This document shows, in pieces, positions 25,234 through 59,200 of a stretch of DNA of 64,000 nucleotides. Position numbers and translations under genes: made by a program. This stretch comes from Candidatus Melainabacteria bacterium (GTDB lineage: Bacteria; Cyanobacteriota; Vampirovibrionia; Obscuribacterales; Obscuribacteraceae), in NCBI GenBank assembly GCA_017307165.1, contig JAFKGK010000013.1, positions 14,520-78,519 on the forward strand. Reading direction: 5' to 3'. The number at the start of each line of letters is the position of its first letter. The stretch's first letter is position 1. The notes beneath the pieces are model-generated. The model saw only the letters and a program-made list of their open reading frames with translations, ran no database searches and had not been told where the DNA came from.

Positions 25234-25395
25234 TCTAAGGGTCTGATTTTTTTGGGAGAGGGAAGGGGGAGAAGGAGTGGATGGCTTGCTGCCTCCTTCT
25301 TTCCTTCTCTCTTTCTCAAAAATTTTGCTTTACACTGTTACTTGATATAGTAAGCAAAAGTGGGGCCTAGTTTTGATGTATGAGAGTCTGAGTGC

Positions 25396-25623
25396 TGTTA
25401 GAAATTTGAGAGGTTATGGAGGTTGAAAATGCAGATGGAGACTGAGGGGAATCTATTTTTTTGAAGGGTCGAAAAATTTGTAAAGGCGAAAATTAATTGC
25501 GCTTGACACTGCAAATCCGCTCACTGCAAGCGTTTCAAATTTAATAAAACCCCAAAACCTGCATTTTACATAACTTCACTCATTAATTTTGTGCGAGCAG
25601 AAACAAGACACCGCCTCACTCTC
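25396..25623. repeat. Left copy of an about 228-bp inverted repeat pair
   Basis: It is about 90% identical to the reverse complement of 28632..28859, read directly from the sequence. The shared core reads ...gaagggtcgaaaaatttgtaaag[g/a]cgaaaattaattg[c/t]gcttgacactgcaaa[t/c]ccgctcactgcaa... Confidence 0.85.
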
Positions 25624-28631: not shown

Positions 28632-28859
28632 GAGAGTGAGTCGGTATCTGCTTTTCGTCCCGACAAAATTAATGAGTGAAGTTTTGTAAAATGCGGGTTT
28701 TGGGGTTTTATTAAATTTGAAACCATTGCAGTGAGCGGGTTTGCAGTGTCAAGCACAATTAATTTTCGTCTTTACAAATTTTTCGACCCTTCAAAAAAAC
28801 AGATCCCCCTCAGTCTCCATCTGCATTTTCAACATCCAAAACCTCTCAAATTTCTAACA
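28632..28859. repeat. Right copy of the about 228-bp inverted repeat pair
   Basis: It is the reverse complement of 25396..25623, read directly from the sequence. Confidence 0.85.
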
Positions 28860-29017
28860 TCACACCCCCCACATTAAGCAAAACCCCAAACCCACTATAC
28901 CATATAACAACTCCTTGCACAAAAAAATCCAACCGGCAGACACAGCCCTTTCACCACCAAAGGCAAAAGAACCGCGTCCACCGGCCAGATATTTTAGAGC
29001 GCAGCGCGCAACATGCT

Positions 29018-37161: not shown

Positions 37162-37295
37162 ACAAAATCGGGAATCTGAGCCATTTACGGAGCAAGCGCA
37201 CCTGCGCCTCAAGGTCTAAATCCATATGGATAACTAACGATATGACCTTCTTTGGGTTCAAATTCTGGCTTAGGTCGATCGATGGCATATTTTTG

Positions 37296-38170
37296 GGCTC
37301 TGTTGCAAAAATTTTTGGACACGAAATACGGTTACCTTTCCGTCGGCAGTGCCTCATATAGTGAGTGCCAGAACTCACGAGATGCCTCGTCGTCTTCGAT
37401 TCCGAAAACCTTTTCTACCAGGTAGACTTCTCCTTTGACTCCTGGGAAGCGCTGCCAGGCGCGAAGCTGGCCCTTTCGAAACATCCGCATGACCTCAAAT
37501 CCCTTAATGGTCGCATACGCTGTTTTCATCGTTTTAAATCCTCGCACCGGATAAATCAGACGCTTGAGCTTGCCATGATCGGCTTCCAGACCGTTATTCA
37601 AGTATTTGACTTGTCGATGCAGTATGTTCGGGTCGCACTTACCGGCAAGTTTCATTTCCTTGAGAGCCACACCGTATGAAGGGTTCTTGTCTGTATTGAT
37701 TGTGTGTGGGCTATCGGCCAACTTCATTTTTCGAATGGCTTTGCTAAGAAAACGCTTTGCCATAGCCGTGCTTCGAGTGGGCGACAAGAAGAAATCAATT
37801 GTGTCTCCGTCTTTGGATATCGCTCGATACAGGTATTTCCAGTCCCCGCCCACCTTGATGTATGTCTCGTCAACGTGCCAGGTGCCGCTAATTGCTGGGC
37901 GATAGCGCCAACGCAGCCGCTTTTCGAGTTCCGGTCCATAGTGTTGCACCCACCGGTATATTGTGGTGTGGTCAACTTCGATGCCTCGCTCTCGCATTAT
38001 TTCTTCGAGGTCTCGGTAGCTGAGACCGTACTTGCAGTACCAGCGAACACATTGCAAAATGGTCTCGCCTTTGAAGTGCCGCCATTTAAAATCGCTCATG
38101 CTTCCTCCTTTCAATGAGACTGGATGCCCGGGCGGGGTATTATTTCGCAGAATGGTAGATATGCGAAGTT
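37296..38170 (-). mobile_element. IS6-family element; one terminal IR identified, other end not found
   Basis: An IS26-like terminal repeat (ggctctgttgcaaa) sits at 37296..37309, 22 bp past the transposase stop. No matching inverted copy was found upstream of the transposase start. The element may therefore be 5'-truncated or rearranged against the adjacent integrase remnant. Confidence 0.5.
37332..38099 (-). CDS. IS6-family (IS26/IS257-like) transposase
   Basis: MSDFKWRHFKGETILQCVRWYCKYGLSYRDLEEIMRERGIEVDHTTIYRWVQHY..DETYIKV..KTMKTAYATIKGFEVMRMFRKGQ is collinear with IS26 Tnp26. Confidence 0.85.
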   Translation of the reverse strand: MSDFKWRHFKGETILQCVRWYCKYGLSYRDLEEIMRERGIEVDHTTIYRWVQHYGPELEKRLRWRYRPAISGTWHVDETYIKVGGDWKYLYRAISKDGDTIDFFLSPTRSTAMAKRFLSKAIRKMKLADSPHTINTDKNPSYGVALKEMKLAGKCDPNILHRQVKYLNNGLEADHGKLKRLIYPVRGFKTMKTAYATIKGFEVMRMFRKGQLRAWQRFPGVKGEVYLVEKVFGIEDDEASREFWHSLYEALPTER

Positions 38171-38191
38171 AAATCGCCGAAAGAAGGGTTA

Positions 38192-38868
38192 ATGCCTGCG
38201 CGCGCATCTAAAAAACCGGCCAGTTTCGCACCATCAAAAGGAAATGCGAAATCGGAGGCCGTCAAGAAAATTCTTCGTATCGCCAGGCAGCACCGCCTGG
38301 GCTATGACGATTTTGTGCAAGTCTGCCAACAAGTCCGGATCAAATTGAATTTGAGAAAGCCCAAGAAAGAGCGGCGGCTTCCAGAGCTGTTGCCGCCGGC
38401 AGAGCTAAAGAAATTTTTCAAAGCGGTCCAGAAGTGCGGCGATTTGCAGCACGAACTGATGCTCAAGCTGCTGTTATACACTGCCGTGCGAGTCAGCGAG
38501 TTAGTCAATATCCGTGTGAGCGATCTGGACCTAGAAGCCTGCAAGATCTTCATCGACAGCGGGAAGGGAAACAAAGACCGATATATTCTTTTTCCAGCGA
38601 GTTTCCGACTAGCACTGAAAAGCTTTGTGGAAGCCCGGCCGCAGAATGTATCTCTTCGAGTCTCGTTTGAATCAACCCTACACTACCAGGCGTATTCAGC
38701 AAATAGTGCGGCTTTACACCGATGAAGCCGGTCTTGAGCTCTGATTCCAAGCTCCAGCTCATTTCCGGCCATGAAAGCCGCAAGAGCTTGGAGTTGTATC
38801 AGCACTTATCGCTTGAATCTGTTGAAGCCGAATATCAGCAAGCAGTCCGACTTTTGGATGTCTAGAAG
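38192..38868 (+). pseudogene. Tyrosine recombinase/integrase remnant (frameshifted, internal deletion)
   Basis: The N-terminal part (LLLYTAVRVSELVNIRVSDLDLEACKIFIDSGKGNKDRYILFP) is the integrase catalytic-domain start. The frame breaks near 38680 (RRIQQIVRLYTDEAGLEL* in frame +1). The C-terminal block (LQLISGHESRKSLELYQHLSLESVEAEYQQAVRLLDV*) lies in a third frame. The H-x-x-R segment between them is missing. Confidence 0.55.
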
Positions 38869-38878
38869 CAAGCTGCTC

Positions 38879-39946
38879 TCACCGAGTTTCATACCAAGCT
38901 TTGCTTGAATTCACGATTTTGACGACCGACAACATAACCGGCACTTCGATCAGAACACCCACAACAGTGGCCAGGGCGGCGCCGGAATTGAAGCCAAATA
39001 GGCTTATGGCCGTGGCTACCGCCAACTCGAAGAAGTTGCTGGCGCCGATCAATGCGGACGGGCAAGCTACGGAGTGCGCGACGCCGAGGCGCTTGTTTAG
39101 CAGGTATGCAAGGGCCGAATTGAAATAGACCTGAATCAGGATCGGTACAGCCAGGATGGCGATGACCATGGGCTGCCTGATGATAGCGTCACCCTGGAAG
39201 CCAAACAATAAAACCAGCGTCGTTAACAGTGCAAGCAACGACAGCGGATGCAATTTGTCTAGCACGCCTTCCAGCGCTTGAGGACCGGCTTTGAGCAAAG
39301 CACCGCGCCACAGTTGTGACAGCAAGACCGGTACAACGATATAGAGTCCCACCGAAATTAAGAGAGTTTCCCATGGCACAGTTATTGATGAAAGCCCCAG
39401 AAGAAGCCCGACTATGGGCGCAAACGCAAAGACCATGATGAGGTCATTTACTGCAACCTGGCTGAGCGTAAAGTATGGATCGCCTTTTGTTAGTTGACTC
39501 CAGACAAACACCATAGCGGTACAGGGAGCCGCTGCCAGGATGATCAGACCAGCTATGTAGCTATCAATTTGTGCGGCTGGTAGGTACGGTGCAAAGACAT
39601 GTTTGATGAAAATGAAGCCTAAGAAAGCCATGGAGAATGGCTTAATAGCCCAGTTTATAAAGAGTGTCACGCCCATTCCGCGCCAATGTTGTTTCACCTG
39701 GTCGATTGCTTTGAAGTCAATTTTCAAAAGCATCGGGATAATCATGACCCAGATGAGAAGCCCCACGGGCAGGTTAACGCGGGCGATCTCCATCGCACCA
39801 ATCGCTTTGAAAACTCCAGGCATTAGCTGACCAAGAAGGACACCGGCACCAATGCACAGGAACACCCACAACGTAAGCCACCGCTCGAAAAAGCCTATGC
39901 TCGGCTCGTTGTCGGTTAGTTTTGGAGTCGCTATCTGGGAAGTCAT
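38879..39946 (-). CDS. acr3: Arsenite efflux permease, ACR3 family
   Basis: A 355-aa protein whose N-terminal block (FFERWLTLWVFLCIGAGVLLG) is ACR3-typical. It has about 10 TM segments. Confidence 0.85.
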   Translation of the reverse strand: MTSQIATPKLTDNEPSIGFFERWLTLWVFLCIGAGVLLGQLMPGVFKAIGAMEIARVNLPVGLLIWVMIIPMLLKIDFKAIDQVKQHWRGMGVTLFINWAIKPFSMAFLGFIFIKHVFAPYLPAAQIDSYIAGLIILAAAPCTAMVFVWSQLTKGDPYFTLSQVAVNDLIMVFAFAPIVGLLLGLSSITVPWETLLISVGLYIVVPVLLSQLWRGALLKAGPQALEGVLDKLHPLSLLALLTTLVLLFGFQGDAIIRQPMVIAILAVPILIQVYFNSALAYLLNKRLGVAHSVACPSALIGASNFFELAVATAISLFGFNSGAALATVVGVLIEVPVMLSVVKIVNSSKAWYETR

Positions 39947-39948
39947 TT

Positions 39949-40368
39949 TTACACCTGCACTGGATCAGCACAGCAGTTTGTCGCGTTCAAGCCCTGTAGA
40001 AGCTTGAGCACGCGCGTTCTTATCTCGTCTCGGATTTGGCACACTTCATCGTCAGACTTGCCTTTTGGATCTGGCAAAGGCCAATCATCGCGCTTCAGAC
40101 CGGGCACAAAGGGACAGGCTTCGCCACATCCCATGGTTACAAGTAGGTCGGCGCCGGCCGCTAGTTCGTCTGTCAGAAGCTGGGGCCTAACGTTTGCCAA
40201 GTCGATCCCGGCTTGTTTCATGGCATGCAGAACACAGTCATGAACTTTGTCGGCCGGTTGCGTTCCGGCTGACACTGCCTGAGCTTTTGCCGGGTCGGCA
40301 AACTGATTGAAAAAGGCGGCCGCCATCTGTGAGCGTCCTGCATTGTGTACGCAGGCGAATATTACTTT
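39949..40368 (-). CDS. arsC: Arsenate reductase, LMW-PTP (thioredoxin-coupled) type, with extra C-terminal CC tail
   Basis: It has a CX5R P-loop (CVHNAGRSQMA) and a GCGEACP region, and ends ..NATNCCADPVQV. The start MKVIF at 40368 overlaps the upstream stop (ATGA). Confidence 0.8.
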   Translation of the reverse strand, partial: KVIFACVHNAGRSQMAAAFFNQFADPAKAQAVSAGTQPADKVHDCVLHAMKQAGIDLANVRPQLLTDELAAGADLLVTMGCGEACPFVPGLKRDDWPLPDPKGKSDDEVCQIRDEIRTRVLKLLQGLNATNCCADPVQV

Positions 40369-40838
40369 CATCTGCTGCATTCCTTCTTGCCTATGCTGAC
40401 CGGCACCGCTTCCGGCATTGGAGCGCAGCAAGCCGAGTTGGTTTGTGTTGTAAAATCGGCGTCTTCGCCATAGGTTGTGGCGCTATCGGTCGTGTAGAAG
40501 CTTTCCCAGGCAATGCCTTGAGGATCGTGTACCCACGCTTTATCCGCTTTGGCGTAACAGCAAGTAGTTTGTTCTTGCTCAAGAATTGGCTGTTGAGCCT
40601 GTTTGAGTCGTACTGAAATTTCCTTGAGCGCTTCGCCGTCGTCAACTTGAATGCCCAAATGGTCGAGCCCTGGCTCTCTTCCGCGAGTAGAGATGGCAAA
40701 GTTTATGCGAGGATCATCAAGCATCCATTTGGCATAGTCTTCCTTCTTGACGGTTGGCGGCACATCAAAAAAGGTTGAGTAGAACTGTATCGACTGCTCT
40801 AAGTCAGCCACTGCAACATGAACATGGAACCTTTTCAT
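40368..40838 (-). CDS. VOC/glyoxalase-fold protein, ArsI/CadI-like (vicinal cysteine pair)
   Basis: MKRFHVHVAVADLEQSIQFYSTFF and TTCCYAKADKAWVHDPQGIAWESFYT resemble the ArsI C-As lyase As(III)-binding region. It has a second CC (NSACCAPMPE) near the C-terminus. Confidence 0.6.
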   Translation of the reverse strand: MKRFHVHVAVADLEQSIQFYSTFFDVPPTVKKEDYAKWMLDDPRINFAISTRGREPGLDHLGIQVDDGEALKEISVRLKQAQQPILEQEQTTCCYAKADKAWVHDPQGIAWESFYTTDSATTYGEDADFTTQTNSACCAPMPEAVPVSIGKKECSR

Positions 40839-41191
40839 TAACACTTTCCTCCATTGTCGGCACAACAGTTTTCCATCAAGAACCCGAGTAGCTCTTGCAT
40901 GTGACCGTAATTTGCCGCGTATATAATTGACCGGCTCTCGCGCCTGGATGCTATCAAACCTGCATTACTCAGCTCTTTTAGGTGGAATGACATAGTTGCC
41001 GGTGGCATTGAGAAATGATCGCTCAATTCCCCAGCAGCCATACCGGTTGCACCTTTGCGGACCAATAGCCTGAAGATATCCAAGCGTGATTCTTGCGCTA
41101 AAGCCCCAAGGGCCTTAACTGCGTCGTTTGTTTTCATATTTCCAGAATAATCGAAGGGTTGCGATAAGTCAAGCCTCCAGAATTTTTGCAA
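40838..41191 (-). CDS. arsR: ArsR/SmtB-family repressor with C-terminal CC-x6-C arsenite site
   Basis: It has a wHTH (LAQESRLDIFRLLVRKGATGMAAGELSDHF) and ends ENCCADNGGKC, like C-terminal-site (AfArsR-type) ArsR. The start is ambiguous: TTG at 41191 or ATG at 41137. Confidence 0.75.
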   Translation of the reverse strand: MQKFWRLDLSQPFDYSGNMKTNDAVKALGALAQESRLDIFRLLVRKGATGMAAGELSDHFSMPPATMSFHLKELSNAGLIASRRESRSIIYAANYGHMQELLGFLMENCCADNGGKC

Positions 41192-41197
41192 CAGAGC

Positions 41198-41503
41198 CTA
41201 TTTTTGAGTGCCCAGATCCGCATACATAAGCAACCCACCTTTTTTGATGACTCTCTTAGTGCGTCTGTCCACCGCACTCATAATTGATTTAACATTGTCG
41301 CAACGAAGTTCTATTGGCGCATTCTTCGCGAGTTTAACCTGCCTGATTTCACTACCATTTATTTCATGACCTAGAGCTAAATCCTGAGTAGCTTGAGTAC
41401 CCATGTAATCCCAGTCAATTTCTTCATGCGAAGTTAGATAAAATCCGATGATTGTTAAACCAAGGCAAACTCCACCAATAATTAGCAATCTACCGGGTTT
41501 CAT
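41198..41503 (-). CDS. Small single-TM protein of unknown function
   Basis: A 101-aa protein (MKPGRLLIIGGVCLGLTIIGFYL...) immediately upstream of arsR on the same strand. Confidence 0.35.
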   Translation of the reverse strand: MKPGRLLIIGGVCLGLTIIGFYLTSHEEIDWDYMGTQATQDLALGHEINGSEIRQVKLAKNAPIELRCDNVKSIMSAVDRRTKRVIKKGGLLMYADLGTQK

Positions 41504-41585
41504 TACTGCTACCTCTACCCTCATAATCTACAAACTAAGATTAGCTTTTCAAAAAAACAATACGTAACTCACGGACAGTTTTATC

Positions 41586-42082
41586 TGCGCGAGCAGACAT
41601 AGAAGGGAGGGCAGTTCATTTTCTTGCTCGCAACTATGTACGACACCTTGCCGATTACATCTAAGAAAGCAGGCACAGAAGGGAGGGCAGTTCATTTTCT
41701 TGCTCGCGTCTACGCACACCACCTTGCCGATTTCATCTAAGAGGGCAGGCATAGAAGGGAGGGCAGATCATTTTCTCGCTTGCGTTAACGCACACCACCT
41801 TGCCGATTACATCTGAGAGGGCAGGCATAGAGGGGAGGGCAAATGTTTTTCTTGCTTGCGTCAACGCACACCACCTTGCCGATTACATCTAAGAGAGCAG
41901 GCATAGAAGGGAGGGCAGTTGATTTTCTCGCTTGCGTCAACGCACACCACCTTGCCGATTACATCTGAGAGGGCAGGCATAGAAGGGAGGGCAGTTGATT
42001 TTCTCGCTTGCGGCAGCGCACACCACCTTGCCGATTACATCTAAGAGAGCAGGCATAGAAAGGAGGGCAGTTGCTTTTCTGC
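41586..42082. repeat. Tandem repeat array, 76-bp unit x about 6.5 copies
   Basis: The anchor gattacatct recurs at 41653, 41729, 41805, 41881, 41957 and 42033, an exact 76-bp period. Units are about 90-95% identical, with the consensus gcaggcatagaagggagggcagttgattttctcgcttgcgtcaacgcacaccaccttgccgattacatctaagaga. There are no unique spacers. The period is not a multiple of 3. Confidence 0.9.
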
Positions 42083-42309
42083 TATCTCTGCACTCATATG
42101 CGATTCTCTGTTCGCAATAAAGCCAAAGCCAGTGCGATCTCAGCCCTATCTCTGCTCTATGCATTTAAGCCGCAGATGAATGCATTGGGGGTTGAGCGGC
42201 CCTTTGCGTCAGCACCGGGGCCGCGATCCCTCAATACATTCATCACCCCAGCTAAAAGACTCTAGACAAAGATAGTCTGCTAGATACGAGATGGCTCTTT
42301 AATGCGAGA

Positions 42310-43227
42310 TCAAAGCCCCTGTCTCTTCAACTGCTTATCGACAATCTCCGCCTGCGCCGCCAATCTCGCAAAGCTTGCATAATCGACTTTGCCGCGCACT
42401 TTTTCCATATGATCGGTCAGTGCAGCCTTGTGCTTGACCAGTTTGTCCATCTTGTCGTTTTTGATCCAGTTCTTGAGCGATCTTTGAGCTGCGCGCTCAT
42501 CCCACGATTTTTCCATCCCCTGAAAAATCTTGGCTCTCACTTTGTCACCCACGCGACCCTTGTCGCTGCCATTAGCCTGCTTTTTGAGACCATACTTGAG
42601 ATAGCTGGTATCGGCCGCTTCGCTCGACTTAAAGGGCTTGATCGGTCCCAGAGACTCGAGTTTCTTTTTCTCTTTTTCTTTGAGCGCATTATTGATCGCC
42701 GCATCAGCTCTTGCCGCAGCCAGTGCCGAGGTCTTAGCGTCCATGTGCTTGTTAAACTGGCCTTCCTTAGCTTGCTTCATCTCATCCATGACCGAAAACG
42801 CCGCACCCATGCCCAGGAGAAATAGCGGGCTGAACATCGCAGCACCCAAAAATCCAAACTTGTCGCGAGTCGACATTTCGTCGGCGACTTTCATTTTGCG
42901 CAGGTCTTCCATGGTCATATGACCAAAGAGCTCGGGGTATTTGTGCTGCAGAGTACCGAGCTGCTTGATGGCTTCTTCGGGGCTCATCACCGAGATATTG
43001 CCGATCTCCTGCATGGCGGCACGTTGCTTGTCTTCAAAGGTTTCTGGTTTAGCGACAGACTCGCTGGCCTGCACAGCCTCGGTGGCGGCAGTCTCGTGTC
43101 CTGAGGTCAGAGCTCTAAAATCCAGCCTTGCGCCCAGGTTTTCGCCTGCACCGGTCCCTGCGTCGCGACCAAAGGCAAACTGAGATTTTTCGGGGCTGGG
43201 ATTAGGATTAAAGTTCAAGATAGACAC
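42310..43227 (-). CDS. Hypothetical bitopic membrane protein (single central TM, K/E-rich C-terminal half)
   Basis: A 305-aa protein with a TM segment FGFLGAAMFSPLFLLGMGAAFSV near residue 130. I recognise no family. Confidence 0.4.
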   Translation of the reverse strand: MSILNFNPNPSPEKSQFAFGRDAGTGAGENLGARLDFRALTSGHETAATEAVQASESVAKPETFEDKQRAAMQEIGNISVMSPEEAIKQLGTLQHKYPELFGHMTMEDLRKMKVADEMSTRDKFGFLGAAMFSPLFLLGMGAAFSVMDEMKQAKEGQFNKHMDAKTSALAAARADAAINNALKEKEKKKLESLGPIKPFKSSEAADTSYLKYGLKKQANGSDKGRVGDKVRAKIFQGMEKSWDERAAQRSLKNWIKNDKMDKLVKHKAALTDHMEKVRGKVDYASFARLAAQAEIVDKQLKRQGL

Positions 43228-43310
43228 CCGTGCAGGACATGATCAAAATTTAAGCCCTACACGCTCCGCTGTCGATGGTGAAAATCCCATCTTGATATCA
43301 AAAAGCTTGC

Positions 43311-44282
43311 CTAACGCGACCGCAAAAACGAGATCGTCTCATTGTCGGTTAGCCAGTACATATAACCCAGAACGCCCGTCAGGACAAAATACGCCAGGCC
43401 GATCAGCACTTTTTCGCCGGTCGTCGCCTCCCTGATATCGCCATATCCGGCCTCATGGACGATCCCGGGCCCTGCAGGTGCGCTGCCGGCTGGCTCATCT
43501 TTAGTTTCTTTGCGACCAGCGCCGCCACCGATGCCCCTCATCAAACGCTCCGCATCACTCTCCTGCCTTTTCTCCTTATTTTTCATATGGCTGATCAATT
43601 GAGAAACGGTGATGAAAGTGGCGATGATGCCGATAATGATGAGAAATGCAGAATGGAGATAGGCGGCCATGGCAAAGAGTATGCCCAGACCCGGCACCAT
43701 CAGCCAGGGACTGATCGCACCCAGCACGGCGCCGCCATCAAAGGGGCGCACCGGGATCAACTGGATGAGATTGAGGAAACAGCCAAAATGCCCGGCAGCC
43801 ATTAGGAGCGGCATTTGCCAGACCACGCCCATGTAAAAGAAAGCAATAGAGGTCACCCCACCCACAAGCGGTCCCCCGATCGAATACCAGGCGATCGATG
43901 TCTGATCCTTGGGCAAAAGGGTCACGCGCGTGGAAGCGCCGACAAAGGGGATGATCATGCCCAGTTGCGGTTTGAGACCCATGGCTTGCATAAAGATAAA
44001 ATGCCCCATCTCATGGATGATGATCACGCCGACTACGACCAGGGCAAAGATAGGACCAAAAAAGGCCCAGTACACACCAATGGCCACAAAGATGCTGGCC
44101 AAAGATTTGAGTAGCCAGGCAAATTTGAGAAAGCTCAGGCCTTTGAGAGCAATAAGTATCGCTGTCTTAAACTTGAACAGAGCGATGCCAAGCACACCCA
44201 AACCGCCCAATAAGGCTTTTTTGCCAGTTTCGTCCTTTTGCTCGCTCATTGATTTACTCTCAAAAAACTCGGGTTTTATCAA
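43311..44282 (-). CDS. M50-family (site-2 protease-like) intramembrane zinc metalloprotease
   Basis: It has HExxH within a TM segment (VIIIHEMGHFIFMQAMG), an LDG-type motif (VRPFDGGAVLG) and multiple TM segments. Confidence 0.7.
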   Translation of the reverse strand: MIKPEFFESKSMSEQKDETGKKALLGGLGVLGIALFKFKTAILIALKGLSFLKFAWLLKSLASIFVAIGVYWAFFGPIFALVVVGVIIIHEMGHFIFMQAMGLKPQLGMIIPFVGASTRVTLLPKDQTSIAWYSIGGPLVGGVTSIAFFYMGVVWQMPLLMAAGHFGCFLNLIQLIPVRPFDGGAVLGAISPWLMVPGLGILFAMAAYLHSAFLIIIGIIATFITVSQLISHMKNKEKRQESDAERLMRGIGGGAGRKETKDEPAGSAPAGPGIVHEAGYGDIREATTGEKVLIGLAYFVLTGVLGYMYWLTDNETISFLRSR

Positions 44283-44411
44283 AGCTTACACCCAGTCTTC
44301 TATAATTAAACCCGCTCGATGCGAGCGAACAAAAGGCAAAGTGTTGGATCAGGAGCAATTGTTTGCCGAGCGCAGTTAGTCTTTTGACACGGGAAACAAA
44401 TAGTAAAAGAG

Positions 44412-45227
44412 ATGACCGAGAGCCTGCCCAAGCAAAATAATAATCCGCTGACAGCGCCTTTTCGATTTATCGAGGAGCAGGCCACTGTAGGCGTGCAACT
44501 CATCGGTCAGGTCTGCCTGCTGTTTGTCAAAACGCTCTGGTATATCCTCAGACTCGATCTAGACTGGCGCGAGACCTTTCGCCAGGCTTATATGATCGGC
44601 TGGAAGTCATTTTGGGTCGTACTCATCACCGCCATTTTTACTGGTTTTGCCATGTCGCTGCAGATCTCGCGCGAGCTGGTCGGCTTTGGTGCTGATACTG
44701 CCATTGGTGGCGTGGTATCCCTCGCGCTTATTCGCGAGATCGGTCCCATCACTGCCGGAGTTATGGTCGCTGGTCGCGTCGGCTCCTCTATCGCCGCCGA
44801 GCTCACCACCATGATGGTCACAGAGCAGATCGACGCTCTCAAAGTCATGCGCGTCGACCCAGTGCGCTTTCTCGTCGTGCCTCGCTATGCCGCGGCCCTC
44901 GTGATGATCCCCACTCTTTCCACCTATGCCATGTTTGTCGGCCTCCTGGCCGGCATTATCATCGCCAAGAGTGCCGCCAATTTGCCCCCCGAGACATTTC
45001 TCGACTCAGTCAGGCAGACCATCCTCGATCGTGACTTTGCCGTGCACTACCTCAAGTCAGCGATCAATGCCACCATCATCATATTTTTCTCTTGCGCCAT
45101 CGGCCTCAATACCAGGGGTGGTGCCGAGGATGTAGGCATCGCCACCACACGCGCTATCGTCTGGACGATGACCGCGATCTTTATCTTCAATTTTATCGTT
45201 ACTTCTCTCACATACGCACCGCGCTGA
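44412..45227 (+). CDS. mlaE: Phospholipid ABC transporter permease MlaE
   Basis: It has the MlaE/YrbE permease blocks (ELVGFGADTAIGGVVSLALIREIGPITAGVMVAGRVGSSIAAELTTMMVTEQIDALKVM). Confidence 0.8.
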   Translation: MTESLPKQNNNPLTAPFRFIEEQATVGVQLIGQVCLLFVKTLWYILRLDLDWRETFRQAYMIGWKSFWVVLITAIFTGFAMSLQISRELVGFGADTAIGGVVSLALIREIGPITAGVMVAGRVGSSIAAELTTMMVTEQIDALKVMRVDPVRFLVVPRYAAALVMIPTLSTYAMFVGLLAGIIIAKSAANLPPETFLDSVRQTILDRDFAVHYLKSAINATIIIFFSCAIGLNTRGGAEDVGIATTRAIVWTMTAIFIFNFIVTSLTYAPR

Positions 45228-45238
45228 GGCAGAGAGAA

Positions 45239-45997
45239 ATGCAAGAAAATAATGCGGATATAAAGAAGAGAAATATAAGGGATCAAGAGCCGATCCTGGA
45301 ATTGAGAGATGTCTACAAGTCATTTGGCGATAGACAGATCCTCAAGGGCGTCTCCTTTAAAGTGTACGCCGGCGAGATGCTGGGTCTAATCGGGCCTTCG
45401 GGCTGCGGCAAATCCACCATTTTTAAGATCATCTGCGGGCTGCTGGAGCCTGATTCTGGCGAGGTGATCCTGCGCAGCAACGATATCGGCCTGGTTTTTC
45501 AGGGCTCTGCTCTCCTCAACAGCCTCAGCGTGCGCGACAATCTCGCCCTGGCGCTCGAAAGACGCAAGCTCAGCCGCAAGGACGAGGACGAGATCATCCA
45601 GCAAAAGCTTTCTCTGGTAGGTCTTGGCGATTACATGCAATCATTTCCCACCCAGCTCTCCGGCGGTCAGCAAAAACGCACCAGCTTTGCACGCGCCATT
45701 GTCGACGACCCCAAGATCATTCTTTACGACGAGCCCACCACTGGTCTCGATCCTGTTATGTCCACCGTCATCGAGGACTACATGAGCGAGCTGTCCAACA
45801 AGCTCGACGCCGCCTCCATCGTCGTCACGCACCAGCACTCGACCTGGACACGCACAGCCGACCGCGTCATCTTGATGTACTCCGGCAAGATCGTCTGGGA
45901 AGGCTCAGCCGAACAAGGCATGCATTCGGATAACCCCTATATGAAACAGTTTGCCTCCGCCTCGCGCGAAGGTCCGATGCTCGCGGGCGTCGTTTAG
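45239..45997 (+). CDS. mlaF: Phospholipid ABC transporter ATPase MlaF
   Basis: It has a Walker A (GPSGCGKST), an ABC signature (LSGGQQKRTSFARA) and a Walker B (ILYDEPTTGLD). Confidence 0.85.
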   Translation: MQENNADIKKRNIRDQEPILELRDVYKSFGDRQILKGVSFKVYAGEMLGLIGPSGCGKSTIFKIICGLLEPDSGEVILRSNDIGLVFQGSALLNSLSVRDNLALALERRKLSRKDEDEIIQQKLSLVGLGDYMQSFPTQLSGGQQKRTSFARAIVDDPKIILYDEPTTGLDPVMSTVIEDYMSELSNKLDAASIVVTHQHSTWTRTADRVILMYSGKIVWEGSAEQGMHSDNPYMKQFASASREGPMLAGVV

Positions 45998-51478: not shown

Positions 51479-51898
51479 ATGAATCGAGCCGAGCTCGTCG
51501 ATACAATCGCAAAGACCACTGGCCAGAACAAGTCCGAAGTGACTCGCACTCTGTCCGCTCTTATTCACACCGTAACTGGCGCTCTTTCTAAGGGCGACAA
51601 AGTTACCCTCGTCGGCTTCGGCACTTTCGAGCGTCGTAACCGCAAAGCCCGCACCGGCCGTAACCCGAGAACTCTCGCTCCCTTGAAGATTCAAGCTGCT
51701 AAAGTTCCCGCTTTCCGCGCTGGCAAAGAGCTCAAGGACATCGTAAACGGCCGCGCTAAGCAGCCCGCTCTCGTCCTCGCTAAAGCCAAAGCTGCTGCTA
51801 AGCCCGTAGCCAAAAAGGCTGCTGCTAAGCCCGCTAAAAAGGCTGCTGCCAAGCCCGCTAAAAAAGCCGTTGCCAAAAAAGGCGGCAAAAAAAGATAG
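51479..51898 (+). CDS. HU/IHF-family DNA-binding protein with lysine/alanine-rich (AAKPAKK)n C-terminal tail
   Basis: An RBS (aaggaga) precedes the ATG at 51479. The HU core is present (MNRAELVDTIAKTTGQNKSEVTRTL..GFGTFERRNRKARTGRNPRT). The tail reads PVAKKAAAKPAKKAAAKPAKKAVAKKGGKKR. Confidence 0.8.
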   Translation: MNRAELVDTIAKTTGQNKSEVTRTLSALIHTVTGALSKGDKVTLVGFGTFERRNRKARTGRNPRTLAPLKIQAAKVPAFRAGKELKDIVNGRAKQPALVLAKAKAAAKPVAKKAAAKPAKKAAAKPAKKAVAKKGGKKR

Positions 51899-55962: not shown

Positions 55963-55978
55963 CCAACGAGAAATGTCA

Positions 55979-56133
55979 TAAAAGAGATGTTCTCATTGCC
56001 TGATCCCAGAGAGAAAGAGAGAGAAATGGCATAACAGAGATGTTCTCATTGCCTGATCTCAGAGAGAAAGAGAGAGAAATGGCCTGACAGATATCTGCTC
56101 TTATTGCCTGATCTCAGAGTAAGTAATAAATGC
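55979..56133. repeat. Direct repeats, about 53-bp unit x 2.8
   Basis: agagatgttctcattgcctgatc[c/t]cagagagaaagagagagaaatggc occurs at 55979-56029 and 56033-56083, with a degenerate third copy to 56133. Confidence 0.8.
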
Positions 56134-56264
56134 AATAACGGATGATGGCAATTAGTGTAGGCCGCTTTGCGCAGCACCGGCGGCCGGCTAATTGCCTCAT
56201 CCGTTATCCATAACTACTCTAAAGAGATCACGGCATAGCAGCCTCATCCGTTATCCATAACTAC
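56131..56264. repeat. Nested inverted repeat / hairpin plus a 23-bp direct repeat
   Basis: gcaataacggatgatggcaattag (56131-56154) is inverted relative to ctaattgcctcatccgttatcc (56186-56207). The GC-rich spacer carries an inner ggccgc..gcggcc stem. cctcatccgttatccataactac is repeated at 56242-56264. Confidence 0.75.
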
Positions 56265-56282
56265 CCAAATGAGATCACGACA

Positions 56283-57248
56283 TCAGATGTACTGATCCAA
56301 TTCTCGCCTCGTGATATCCACAAAATAAGCAAACACACTCATTGCAAGCTTATCGACACTATCCAGTTCGCTCGGCAGAGACTGCGCCCGACCGCAGACC
56401 CTCGCCGCCTGCTGATCAAATAAGGCACTGCGATCGTCGACCATCCATTCGGCACACCCCGATCTAATGCGCACATTGATCGATAGTATCGGCCTAAACT
56501 GATCCTCGCTCACGCTCAGCGCCATCGCCTTATCCACAGGCATGACATAAAACTCGAGCTTATTGATGCCACCACGTAGCATCAGCGTATACAGCGAATT
56601 AGAAAGTCTGGCCCTAAAATAAGTAACCGTCTCTTCCGCTTCTCTATTTTTATTGATCGTAATTACCTCTGCCACCTCACCCATGATCGAGCTTGAGATC
56701 TGCAGGCCAGTCCCTTGAGCCACCTTGTTGAGCTCAAAGGCATAATGCTTGAGATGACGAAACAACTGATCGACCAGATAACAAACCGCTGACTTAAACA
56801 AACTATCCTGCAGCTCTCTTTCCGCATCCTCATCCCGACGGCTCTGGATAAAATGCTCGGATTGAGCCTTTAGATCATCCATCCACGACTGCACGTCATC
56901 TGACACTCCAATACCAAAATCACTCAAATGCTTATCCGAAAGCTCGGCATGCGCGATCATCCCAGCAAGTGAGCTACTGTCTTTTATCGCACGCGACTCT
57001 CCAAACTCACCAGCAGCACCCGCCGTCAGGTCATGCCCAAACATCGAACGATCCAGCTGCCGCGGCAAACCCTGTTGCATGGCCGGATGCATATCGACAA
57101 ACTTACGCAATTGCTCGCGCCCCAGAGGTTTGGGCCTATCCGCGCCGCCACGCATACTACCTGATTGCGACTGACCTTTAAGCATAATCACCTCTTTCGT
57201 GCCGATATCTCGATTGTGCTCTCTGGAGCGAGTACCGTCATCGACCAA
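56283..57248 (-). CDS. Hypothetical protein (about 320 aa)
   Basis: It is an ORF of coding-like composition. I recognise no family. The start is uncertain: 57248 or an internal M at 57186. Confidence 0.4.
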
Positions 57249-58058: not shown

Positions 58059-58862
58059 ATGGCAGAGCTAGCTCGTAAAATACACCCATTGGTACCAGTG
58101 GCAAAGGCAGCCAGATTATTGCGCCTCGACGAAAACCTCCTGATATCGCGCATTTCGCGTGGAGTTATAGCAGGAGAGTGTCGGCGCATCGATAGCACCT
58201 CCAGTGATACTACCAAACCTGGCTCTCGCAAAAAGCGTAGCACCACCACTGGTTACCAAGAGCAGTGGTTTATCCACGCCGACGAGTTTGACCGCTTGCT
58301 AGACGACAAGTTGGCAAACCTGGAGGAGCGAGTCACCACTTCGGGGATGGATGATTTTTTCACCACCAATTTTGACGCCACACCCACCTATGATTTTGCA
58401 CCGCCTAGACAATACCCAGAGATGAGTTTTGTCCCCGGGCACGACGAGTCGGTCGACACTCACCCGCACCGGATTGCGACCGACAGAGCACGCGATCACG
58501 TACATATCAGCGAGTCAGACCTGAGGCCCTCCGACAGCTCGGACGACCACCAGGCCATCGATGCCGAGATGGACGCGCAGTGCGCAACCAAGTCCCAGAC
58601 GACATCCGCTCAGGAGTTTGTTGCCACCACTTTCAATACCGAGCTCTCCAAGACGATCGGTACCGCCATCGCAGCCGAGATCATAGGCATGCTGAGCCAG
58701 GAGGTCGAGCGCAACCAGACGCTGCACGACCGCATCGACTCACTCGAGCGCGAGATCGTCGCCCTCAAGACCGAGCTGTATTACCAGGTCGATAGCAAGC
58801 CTACTGTGGTGTCCCGAGTAGGCGGCTATTTTGCGCGTATGTTTGGCTTAAAGGTGAAGTAG
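58059..58862 (+). CDS. Hypothetical acidic protein (267 aa)
   Basis: It is an ORF of coding-like composition. I recognise no family. Its last about 10 nt overlap the 3' end of rnpB on the other strand. Confidence 0.4.
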   Translation: MAELARKIHPLVPVAKAARLLRLDENLLISRISRGVIAGECRRIDSTSSDTTKPGSRKKRSTTTGYQEQWFIHADEFDRLLDDKLANLEERVTTSGMDDFFTTNFDATPTYDFAPPRQYPEMSFVPGHDESVDTHPHRIATDRARDHVHISESDLRPSDSSDDHQAIDAEMDAQCATKSQTTSAQEFVATTFNTELSKTIGTAIAAEIIGMLSQEVERNQTLHDRIDSLEREIVALKTELYYQVDSKPTVVSRVGGYFARMFGLKVK

Positions 58863-59200
58863 CGTATAAGCCGGGTTCTGTATTTGACCGTCATCTATCT
58901 GGGAGAGCGATCTCTCGCCCCCTCTAGCGGCATCGGCAGAACGAGACGACGGGCAGCCGCTTACTCGATCTATACCTTCGCCTTGCACCTTTAGCGGGGT
59001 TTACCTAGCCAGAGCCTCTCGACTCTGCTGGTGCGCTCTTACCGCACCGTTGCACCCTTGCCTGCTTGCGCAGGCGGTCATCATTTCTGTGGCACTATCC
59101 TCACGCTCACGCGCACTGGGCATTACCCAGCAACCAGCCCTGCGGTGCCCGGACTTTCCTCATTGGCAAGCCAACGCGACAGTCTGCGCTACTTCAGCCC
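58850..59200 (-). ncRNA. rnpB: RNase P RNA (bacterial type A)
   Basis: Three universally conserved motifs are present on the minus strand: GGAAAGUCCGGGC (complement of 59148-59160), GGGUGCAACGGUGCGGUAAGAGCGCACC, and ACAGAACCCGGCUUAU (complement of 58866-58881). The 5' GAAGUAGCG and 3' CGCUACUUC ends pair as helix P1. A TATAAT -10 box sits about 7 nt upstream of the 5' end (complement of 59203-59208). Confidence 0.85.

What the first reader, a model, noticed from the sequence alone, without database searches (positions are those of the whole stretch)
41586..42082. 76-bp tandem repeat array (about 6.5 copies) in the upstream region of the ars operon
The period is exactly 76 bp, with anchors at 41653, 41729, 41805, 41881, 41957 and 42033. 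Units are 90-95% identical and have no unique spacers, so this is not CRISPR. The period is not a multiple of 3, so the small ORFs the track places here are repeat artefacts. Each unit carries an aagggaggg motif and a ttgccg..acatct segment. The array sits between a hypothetical gene and the small TM gene that precedes arsR on the minus strand. That places it in the promoter-proximal region of the arsenic-resistance operon. Candidate roles are an iteron-like regulator-binding array, a copy-number-variable (VNTR) promoter spacer giving phase or tuning variation, or a satellite inherited with the accessory island.
Basis: seen in the sequence. Interest (0 to 1): 0.6.

Follow-up and report, generated by a model that had tools for sequence, protein, structure and literature searches.

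The report
Tandem repeat beside transposon-split SAF gene
A real 76-bp non-coding tandem repeat sits upstream of a small membrane-protein gene that an arsenic-resistance transposon later split, so it is an ordinary-looking bacterial minisatellite with one conserved 24-bp core of unknown function, not an arsenic-operon control element.

Summary
A 76-bp head-to-tail array of 6.4 copies lies at about 41575-42082. It is non-coding and is seen in more than 20 independent metagenome contigs. The ars interpretation does not hold. The ars operon lies inside a 3.9-kb IS6-type transposon (37296-41198) with perfect 18-nt inverted ends and an 8-bp target duplication. This transposon inserted into the small "TM" gene. 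Removing it in silico restores a 128-aa SAF-domain gene. The array therefore belongs to that gene's upstream region, at the edge of an accessory segment in an Obscuribacterales-like genome, and relatives lack it. Contigs carry 6.4, 5.4 or 4.4 copies in five structures on nearly identical flanks. Every deletion junction falls in the longest internal exact repeats, and all short forms come from one assembler, so copy-number variation is suggested but not proven. The array has no Rfam match, no RNA structure above shuffles, no promoter or terminator signal, and no dispersed copies. Two results argue for function. Variation avoids a 21-nt core and a 19-nt block (p = 7e-7). The core also recurs, 21-23 of 24 nt identical, in a different 98-bp array beside a homologous SAF gene. 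My best guess is a multi-site DNA-binding array, held with low confidence.

The parts
41575..42082 (.). 76-bp tandem array, 6.4 units (u0-u5 complete, u6 partial). The TRF core interval is 41591-42080.
41593..42069 (+). Seven copies of the conserved 21-nt core GCAGGCATAGAAGGGAGGGCA. They start at 41593, 41669, 41745, 41821, 41897, 41973 and 42049. The core is purine-rich and contains GGGAGGG.
   Evidence: Only 3 of 126 cells vary. The core is shared with the 98-bp array of L118-L120.
41644..42042 (+). Six copies of the conserved 19-nt block B (CCTTGCCGATTACATCT region), at positions 54-72 of each unit.
   Evidence: Only 1 of 114 cells varies. Block B is absent from the 98-bp array.
41525..41552 (-). 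Promoter-like site TTGAAA-16-TAGATT. It lies 22 nt upstream of the ATG at 41503 and about 25-40 bp from the array edge.
   Evidence: This is a consensus match only.
41199..41524 (-). 5' fragment of the small SAF-domain membrane-protein gene. The likely true start is ATG 41503. The fragment ends at the transposon end, and its stop codon is created by the first base of the inverted repeat.
   Evidence: homologs continue for 26 more residues; SAF PF08666 in 3 of 6 family members.
37209..37295 (-). 3' fragment of the same SAF-domain gene (QKYAIDRPKPEFEPKEGHIVSYPYGFRP, then stop).
37296..41198 (.). IS6-type transposon carrying the IS6 transposase (37332-38114, minus), a truncated integrase, ACR3, arsC, an ArsI-like glyoxalase and arsR. 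The 18-nt terminal inverted repeats GGCTCTGTTGCAAAAATT lie at 37296-37313 and 41181-41198. The 8-bp target duplication TATTTTTG lies at 37288-37295 and 41199-41206.
   Evidence: (repeat I5). The IS26/IS15 inverted repeat GGCACTGTTGCAAA and its 8-bp duplications are described in PMC5328509.
42173..42246 (-). Strong hairpin between the stop of the 305-aa gene and the array. It is probably a 3' end or terminator-type structure of that gene, but it has no U-tract.
   Evidence: -50.2 kcal/mol and z = -5.2 for the folded stretch 42160-42260. (repeat I1). One search gives only generic hairpin hits.
42310..43227 (-). 305-aa hypothetical core gene. It is the last gene syntenic with the nearest relatives.

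Best explanation
The array is a lineage-specific, non-coding minisatellite in the upstream region of a small SAF-domain membrane-protein gene. It lies at the border between conserved core genes and an accessory segment of an uncultured Obscuribacterales-like (Vampirovibrionia) genome. It grew, and probably still changes, by in-register recombination or slippage between units. It has no evolutionary link to the ars operon, which arrived later inside an IS6-type transposon that split the SAF gene. This much is shown. The following is inferred. The array acts at the DNA level as a row of seven binding sites for an unknown sequence-specific protein. Each site is a 21-24-bp asymmetric core, and in this array each core is accompanied by a second 19-bp block. 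The row starts about 25-40 bp upstream of the SAF gene's -35-like hexamer, so it could tune that promoter or organise the local DNA. Unit number would then set the dose of sites.
For: Shown:
- The array is real and reproducible.
- Transposon ends, target duplication and restoration of the 128-aa ORF place the ars genes in a later insertion.
- Relatives that share the flanking core genes have neither the array nor the ars genes, and synteny with L017 stops at about 42310.

Supporting function:
- Substitutions among units avoid the core and block B. These show 4 minor cells of 240, against 29 of 216 elsewhere (Fisher p = 7e-7, or p = 4e-4 without u0).
- A different array (98-bp period, 3-4 units) lies next to a 54%-identical homolog of the SAF protein in L118-L120. 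It carries the same core at 21-23 of 24 nt, while the adjacent coding sequences are only 61% identical at the nucleotide level.

Supporting DNA-level rather than RNA-level action:
- The array's position and orientation relative to the SAF gene differ between the two loci.
- Neither strand folds better than shuffled sequence, with z between -0.2 and +2.6.
- There is no Rfam hit even at E <= 5.
- No unit carries a promoter or terminator consensus.
Against: - No candidate binding protein was identified. No rep, par or regulator gene lies next to the array in the window apart from arsR, which is transposon-borne.
- The core has no dyad symmetry.
- In the 98-bp array the core is not better conserved than the rest of the unit.
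- Four other clades of the SAF gene family have no array.
- The sample is small, at six to seven units.
- Concerted evolution can produce uneven variation without selection.
- The SAF gene downstream is now disrupted, so any regulatory role here may be vestigial.
Confidence: 0.35

Rival explanations
1. The array is a neutral minisatellite. It arose by tandem duplication through replication slippage or unequal recombination, persists in an unconstrained intergenic gap, and has no function. The shared core reflects common descent or chance seeding.
For: - The array is restricted to one near-clonal population. It is absent from relatives, from GTDB representatives and from the metagenome scan other than this locus.
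- It shows no promoter, terminator, RNA structure or family match.
- The same 64-kb window has two other small intergenic arrays, at 55968-56119 and 56194-56283. The genome therefore tolerates such repeats.
- The edge unit is the most diverged, as expected for neutral array dynamics.
Against: - A 24-nt core is kept at 88-96% identity between two arrays whose neighbouring homologous genes are only 61% identical in DNA. This is hard to explain neutrally.
- Variation within the array is strongly non-uniform (p = 7e-7).
Confidence: 0.3
2. The array is an RNA-level element transcribed as one long, unstructured RNA. Read on the plus strand it carries seven Shine-Dalgarno-like GGGAGGG motifs, which could act as a sponge for ribosomes, for a CsrA-type protein, or for C-rich small RNAs. 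Read on the minus strand it forms part of a long leader of the SAF gene with seven CCCUCCC anti-Shine-Dalgarno-like motifs.
For: - The most conserved part of the unit is the purine tract AGAAGGGAGGG.
- Variants in the 98-bp array keep AAAGGAGGG or GGGAGGG in most units.
- Both strands are less structured than shuffled sequence, with z = +1.5 and +2.6, as expected for accessible single-stranded motifs.
- No canonical terminator separates the 305-aa gene from the array.
Against: - No promoter consensus drives the array on either strand.
- One 98-bp unit has AAGAGAGGG, without GGAGG or GGA.
- A very stable hairpin lies between the upstream gene and the array.
- No Rfam family matches.
- No expression data are available.
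Confidence: 0.15
3. The array is a regulatory part of the ars operon, either an ArsR operator or iteron array or a copy-number-variable promoter spacer that tunes arsenic resistance.
For: - The array is on the 5' side of the ars genes, which are all on the minus strand.
- Read-through from the SAF promoter into the transposon is physically possible, because only 6 bp separate the truncated ORF from the arsR ORF.
Against: - The ars genes are inside a transposon with intact ends and a target duplication, inserted into the SAF gene.
- About 380 bp of unrelated gene plus the transposon end lie between the array and arsR.
- A promoter-like site for arsR lies inside the element at 41172-41144.
- A related array exists at loci with no ars genes.
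- The units contain no conserved inverted repeat of the ArsR/SmtB operator type.
Confidence: 0.03

Closest known systems
Bacterial intergenic minisatellites / VNTR loci such as mycobacterial MIRUs (46-101-bp units; from my own knowledge) and the promoter-active minisatellite 'BrickBuilt' of Porphyromonas gingivalis (PMC4596501)
   Same: Both are head-to-tail non-coding units of tens of bp in an intergenic gap. Copy number apparently differs between otherwise near-identical genomes, with in-register deletions at the longest identities. Both lie close to a promoter.
   Different: MIRU and BrickBuilt are multi-copy families dispersed over many loci, and BrickBuilt has leader and tail modules with inverted ends. 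Here only one locus is known. No significant flanking inverted repeats were found. No other copy exists in the window or in about 55 kb of related genomes.
Iteron and centromere arrays of plasmids, e.g. F sopC (12 x 43-bp repeats, each with one SopB site; from my own knowledge)
   Same: Both are direct repeats in which a short conserved recognition core is embedded in a longer unit. Function would be independent of orientation relative to neighbouring genes.
   Different: There is no rep or par gene nearby. The context is chromosomal. The core is asymmetric and lacks the inverted repeat typical of SopB/ParB sites. The periods of 76 and 98 bp are much longer than usual iterons.
Tandem small-RNA gene arrays such as NsiR1 of Nostocales (from my own knowledge)
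   Same: Both are tandem units of sub-100-nt size in an intergenic region of a member of the cyanobacterial lineage.
   Different: NsiR1 units each have a promoter and a terminator hairpin. These units have neither, and they show no stable fold.
IS6/IS26-family transposable elements (this applies to the neighbouring ars unit, not to the array)
   Same: The ars unit has a DDE_Tnp_IS240 transposase. Its terminal repeat GGCTCTGTTGCAAA matches the IS26/IS15 inverted repeat at 13 of 14 positions, and it has an 8-bp target duplication.
   Different: A single transposase copy and 3 kb of passenger genes lie between the two ends. This differs from a bare 0.8-kb IS and from a composite transposon with two IS copies.

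Membership tests
CRISPR array | Short conserved repeats separated by unique spacers of similar length | tested here: not met
   Whole 76-bp units repeat head to tail. The least conserved 30-nt stretch still varies in only about 13% of cells between units.
Bacterial VNTR / minisatellite | Head-to-tail non-coding units of 10-100 bp | tested here: met
   TRF: period 76, 6.4 copies, 90% matches, no indels. No open frame runs through the array.
Bacterial VNTR / minisatellite | Copy number differs between strains | tested here: inconclusive
   Contigs carry 6.4, 5.4 (two structures) and 4.4 (two structures) copies on flanks that differ by 0-5 SNPs. All short forms come from megahit contigs. Every junction lies in the longest internal exact repeats of 45, 44, 40 and 31 nt. 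Low-k assembly shortcuts therefore cannot be excluded (general problem: PMC6868369, from its title and abstract as listed).
Dispersed repeat family (MIRU / REP / MITE-like) | Many copies at different loci of the genome | tested here: not met
   The window has no other copy at up to 3 mismatches. Among the 123 fetched loci the core pattern occurs only at this locus and in L118-L120. The block-B pattern is absent from GTDB representatives, and in JGI metagenomes it occurs only at this locus. The core pattern itself could not be scanned against those two collections.
Iteron / centromere array | A cognate initiator or partition gene adjacent to the repeats | tested here: not met
   Pfam and PHROGs scans of all neighbouring ORFs, in the window and in the loci with the related array, give no Rep, ParA, ParB or similar hit.
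Iteron / centromere array | Specific protein binding to each repeat | not testable with these tools
   This needs EMSA, footprinting or a pull-down. The only indirect support is the conserved core.
Tandem sRNA gene array (NsiR1-like) | Each unit has its own promoter and terminator or a stable fold | tested here: not met
   No promoter or terminator hits fall inside the array. Single units have z = +0.8 and +1.1. There is no Rfam hit.
ArsR/SmtB operator of the ars operon | An inverted-repeat operator overlapping the promoter that drives arsR | tested here: not met
   The array is separated from arsR by the SAF gene fragment and the transposon end. arsR has a promoter-like site inside the element. 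The only palindrome in the units (TGCGTNNACGCA) is among their most variable parts.
IS6-family transposable element (the ars unit) | DDE transposase of the IS6/IS240 type, IS26-like terminal inverted repeats, and an 8-bp target duplication | tested here: met
   PF13610 at E = 2.6e-46. The 18-nt inverted repeats are perfect, and their first 14 nt match the IS26/IS15 inverted repeat at 13 positions. TATTTTTG is duplicated, and excision restores the interrupted ORF.

The most novel reading that the evidence does not exclude
The 21-24-bp core (AGAGCAGGCAnAnAAGnGAGGGCA), iterated at 76- or 98-bp spacing, could be a previously undescribed cis element that travels with a family of small SAF-domain membrane-protein genes in accessory DNA of Vampirovibrionia-like bacteria. 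It might be a loading or partition-type site array, or a multi-seed RNA, recognised by an unknown conserved factor, with unit number as a fast-evolving dosage control.
Probability: 0.15. Interest if true: 0.55.

Novelty: new member of a known kind. Interest (0 to 1): 0.3.

Why it matters
The main value is corrective. Proximity to the ars operon is an accident of a transposon insertion, so the array should not be treated as an arsenic-resistance regulator. If the copy-number differences are real, the locus would be a handy strain marker for an uncultured Obscuribacterales-like population seen in many metagenomes. The conserved core shared by two otherwise different arrays beside homologous genes is a small but concrete lead to a cis element and its binding factor, in a phylum with almost no experimental genetics.

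Tried and rejected
- **Structured RNA.** Rfam at gathering and at E <= 5 gave nothing in either array. Whole arrays and single units fold no better than shuffles.
- **tRNA or tmRNA origin.** None found.
- **Sigma-70 promoters or intrinsic terminators inside the units.** None above chance. By eye, a TGTAAT hexamer recurs on the minus strand, but it has no usable -35.
- **Coding repeat.** The period is 1 mod 3, stops occur in all frames, and the called 41-75-aa ORFs are artefacts.
- **Dispersed family.** The block-B pattern found nothing in GTDB representatives. In JGI metagenomes it found only this locus plus nine unrelated chance hits. IMG/VR gave nothing. BLAST against plasmids and phages found no match.
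- **MITE-like bracket.** Short inverted matches between the array edge and 42146-42180, and motifs such as CCTATCTCT and ATGCATTGG shared with L120, are at chance level for regions this size (and my estimate).
- **Origin from flanking unique sequence.** None found.
- **Phage or plasmid origin of the SAF gene family.** There are no viral relatives and no informative PHROGs or Pfam hits for its neighbours.
- **Missing arsR in some contigs.** This is only a gene-calling difference, because the DNA is identical.

Full report
**1. Observation**

Tandem Repeats Finder reports a single strong array at 41591-42080, with period 76, 6.4 copies, 90% matches and no indels. Written in register, there are six full units and a seventh that stops after about 35 nt. 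Two motifs define the unit. GCAGGCATAGAAGGGAGGGCAG occurs seven times and CACCACCTTGCCGATTACATCT six times, always 76 bp apart. Neither occurs elsewhere in the 64-kb window or in any of 100 shuffles. Pairwise unit identity is 80-95%, and the unit nearest the small gene is the most diverged. Only the stated identity range of 90-95% is slightly optimistic. The ORFs of 51-75 aa that overlap the array are broken by stops and shift frame with each unit.

**2. Source and reproducibility**

The flanking genes are gatB, mlaDEF and an M50-like peptidase. Their best matches are Candidatus Obscuribacterales MAGs, at only 60-67% GatB identity. The source is therefore an uncultured Vampirovibrionia-type bacterium with no close species representative. 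Exact-protein look-ups for the two flanking genes returned more than 20 metagenome contigs carrying the same locus. They come from ENA/megahit, JGI, Logan and scaffold-type assemblies. The array is a property of the organism and not an artefact of one assembly.

**3. The ars operon is a later insertion**

A perfect 18-nt inverted repeat, GGCTCTGTTGCAAAAATT, lies at 37296-37313 and 41181-41198. Its first 14 nt match the IS26/IS15 inverted repeat GGCACTGTTGCAAA at 13 positions (PMC5328509).

- Between the two arms lie an IS6/IS240-type transposase, a truncated integrase, ACR3, arsC, an ArsI-like glyoxalase and arsR.
- The 8 bp outside each arm are identical (TATTTTTG), which is the target duplication size of this family.
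- The small "TM" ORF ends exactly at the right arm, and its stop codon uses the first base of the repeat.
- Homologs of this ORF continue for 26 more residues.
- Those residues (YAIDRPKPEFEPKEGHIVSYPYGFRP) are encoded just outside the left arm, 3.9 kb away.
- Deleting 37296-41206 in silico restores a 128-aa ORF colinear with the homologs.

The ars genes therefore arrived inside a 3,903-bp IS6-type transposon that split this gene. A promoter-like site for arsR lies inside the element at 41172-41144. A second haplotype (L121, L122) has a 52-bp deletion directly next to the transposon end. The array is about 380 bp and one transposon boundary away from arsR, and it was there independently of the ars genes.

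**4. What the array does flank**

The interrupted gene encodes a small protein with an N-terminal hydrophobic segment and a SAF domain (PF08666 in 3 of 6 family members, best E = 3e-5). Its likely start is ATG 41503. A TTGAAA-16-TAGATT site lies at 41552-41525. The array begins 25-40 bp beyond that -35-like hexamer.

On the other side, the 305-aa hypothetical gene ends at 42310. A very stable hairpin follows at 42173-42246 (-50 kcal/mol, z = -5.2 for the folded stretch 42160-42260). About 90 bp then separate the hairpin from the array.

Synteny with the nearest relative stops exactly at the end of the 305-aa gene. More distant relatives of that gene are followed within about 6-100 bp by another gene, with no array and no ars genes. 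The array thus lies at the edge of an accessory segment.

**5. Copy-number variation**

Complete contigs carry one of five structures:

| Copies | Structure | Contigs |
|---|---|---|
| 6.4 | full array | window, L008-L011, L016, L121 (also the one-flank contigs L013 and L015) |
| 5.4 | u4/u5 fusion | L001, L012 |
| 5.4 | u0/u1 fusion | L002 |
| 4.4 | u4 and u5 lost | L003, L005, L007 |
| 4.4 | u3 and u4 lost | L004 |

L122 also carries 4.4 copies, but its unit structure was not resolved.

The flanks differ by only 0-5 SNPs over several kb. Both 6.4 and 4.4 copies occur on the slightly diverged second haplotype. This looks like a fast VNTR, but two facts prevent a firm conclusion. All shortened forms come from megahit contigs. 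Every junction also lies in the longest internal exact repeats, of 45, 44, 40 and 31 nt. Both recombination and low-k graph shortcuts would choose exactly those points. Tandem repeats are a known source of assembly error (PMC6868369, from its title and abstract as listed). I rate real variation at roughly even odds.

**6. What the array is not**

- No Rfam family matches at gathering thresholds or at E <= 5.
- There is no tRNA or tmRNA.
- Both strands of the whole array, and single units, fold no better than dinucleotide shuffles, with z from +0.8 to +2.6.
- There are no promoter or terminator consensus sites within the units.
- There are no matches in plasmid, phage or viral collections.
- A 20-base pattern from block B is absent from 185,000 species representatives. 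In JGI metagenomes it occurs only at this locus, and nine other hits are unrelated coding sequences.

**7. Signs of function**

First, differences among units are not spread evenly. The 21-nt core and the 19-nt block B together show 4 minor-allele cells of 240. The 30-nt middle and the unit junction show 29 of 216 (Fisher p = 7e-7, or 4e-4 without the edge unit).

Second, loci L118-L120 encode a 54%-identical homolog of the SAF protein. About 177 bp downstream of that gene they carry a different tandem array of 98-bp units, with 3 units in L118 and 4 in L120. Its units share only the core with the 76-bp unit, but they share it at 21-23 of 24 nt. The adjacent coding sequences are 61% identical at the nucleotide level.

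The array is upstream of the gene and antisense to it in the window. It is downstream and sense in L118-L120. Four other clades of the gene family show no array. Their neighbours include integrase, resolvase, a Mu-type transposase and a PemK toxin, which points to mobile DNA, but none gives a functional clue.

**8. Interpretation**

The secure part is that this is a lineage-specific intergenic minisatellite upstream of a SAF-domain gene, unrelated to ars regulation. For mechanism I commit, at about 0.35, to a DNA-level multi-site binding array. The asymmetric core, with block B in this array, would be recognised by an unknown protein, and unit number would set site dosage near the SAF promoter. 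Orientation independence, the lack of RNA structure and the lack of unit promoters favour DNA over RNA.

The rivals are:

- a neutral satellite (0.3), weakened by the core conservation;
- an unstructured RNA carrying seven GGGAGGG or CCCUCCC motifs (0.15);
- the ars-regulator reading (0.03), contradicted by the insertion structure.

**9. Novelty**

Bacterial intergenic minisatellites near promoters are well known. Examples are the MIRU loci and the BrickBuilt element (PMC4596501). This is a new member of that kind, and the shared core gives it modest extra interest.

Noticed in passing
window 37288-41206: The whole ars operon (arsR, ArsI-like glyoxalase, LMWP-type arsC, ACR3), a truncated tyrosine-recombinase gene and one IS6-family transposase form a 3,903-bp unit. 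It is bounded by perfect 18-nt IS26-like inverted repeats and has an 8-bp target duplication (TATTTTTG). It is inserted inside a 128-aa SAF-domain gene. A single IS6 copy carrying 3 kb of passenger genes between its ends is unusual for this family.
   Followed up: yes
L121 and L122, corresponding to window 41199-41250: A second haplotype of the same locus, with 15 shared SNPs in the mlaE-mlaF region (about 43150-45850), has a 52-bp deletion immediately adjacent to the right transposon end. It removes the 3' end of the truncated SAF fragment and looks like an IS6-mediated adjacent deletion.
   Followed up: partly
L118 2176-2448, L119 2971-3223, L120 753-1123: A 98-bp-period tandem array of 2.6-3.8 units lies downstream of a 128-aa homolog of the SAF gene in unrelated contigs. 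It shares only the 24-nt core with the window's array. Its units contain a GC-rich segment, GCGGCGCGGAGATGGCCCCACAGGCCGCG. Copy number differs between L118 and L120.
   Followed up: partly
window 42173-42246 (minus strand): A very stable long hairpin lies 64-137 nt after the stop of the 305-aa gene (-50.2 kcal/mol, z = -5.2 for the folded stretch 42160-42260). It has a 13-bp outer stem and a GC-rich inner stem, and no U-tract follows it.
   Followed up: partly
window 55968-56119 and 56194-56283: Two further small tandem arrays (53 bp x 2.8 and 47 bp x 1.9) lie side by side in one intergenic gap between convergent or neighbouring ORFs. They are unrelated in sequence to the 76-bp unit and suggest that this genome tolerates intergenic tandem duplications.
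   Followed up: no
window 25392-25623 and 28632-28863: A pair of 232-nt inverted repeats, 91% complementary, brackets about 3 kb of lower-GC DNA. That DNA encodes a 718-aa spermine-synthase-like methyltransferase protein and an SF0329-family protein. It is possibly another mobile or invertible segment.
   Followed up: no
window 58851-59196 (minus strand): Bacterial RNase P RNA class A (RF00010, 256 bits).
   Followed up: no
window 51791-51876; also L017 and L018: A 24-bp coding repeat, GCTGCTGCTAAGCCCGCTAAAAAG (AAKPAKK-type lysine- and alanine-rich repeats), is conserved in the Obscuribacterales relatives. It probably belongs to a histone-like or DNA-binding protein tail.
   Followed up: no
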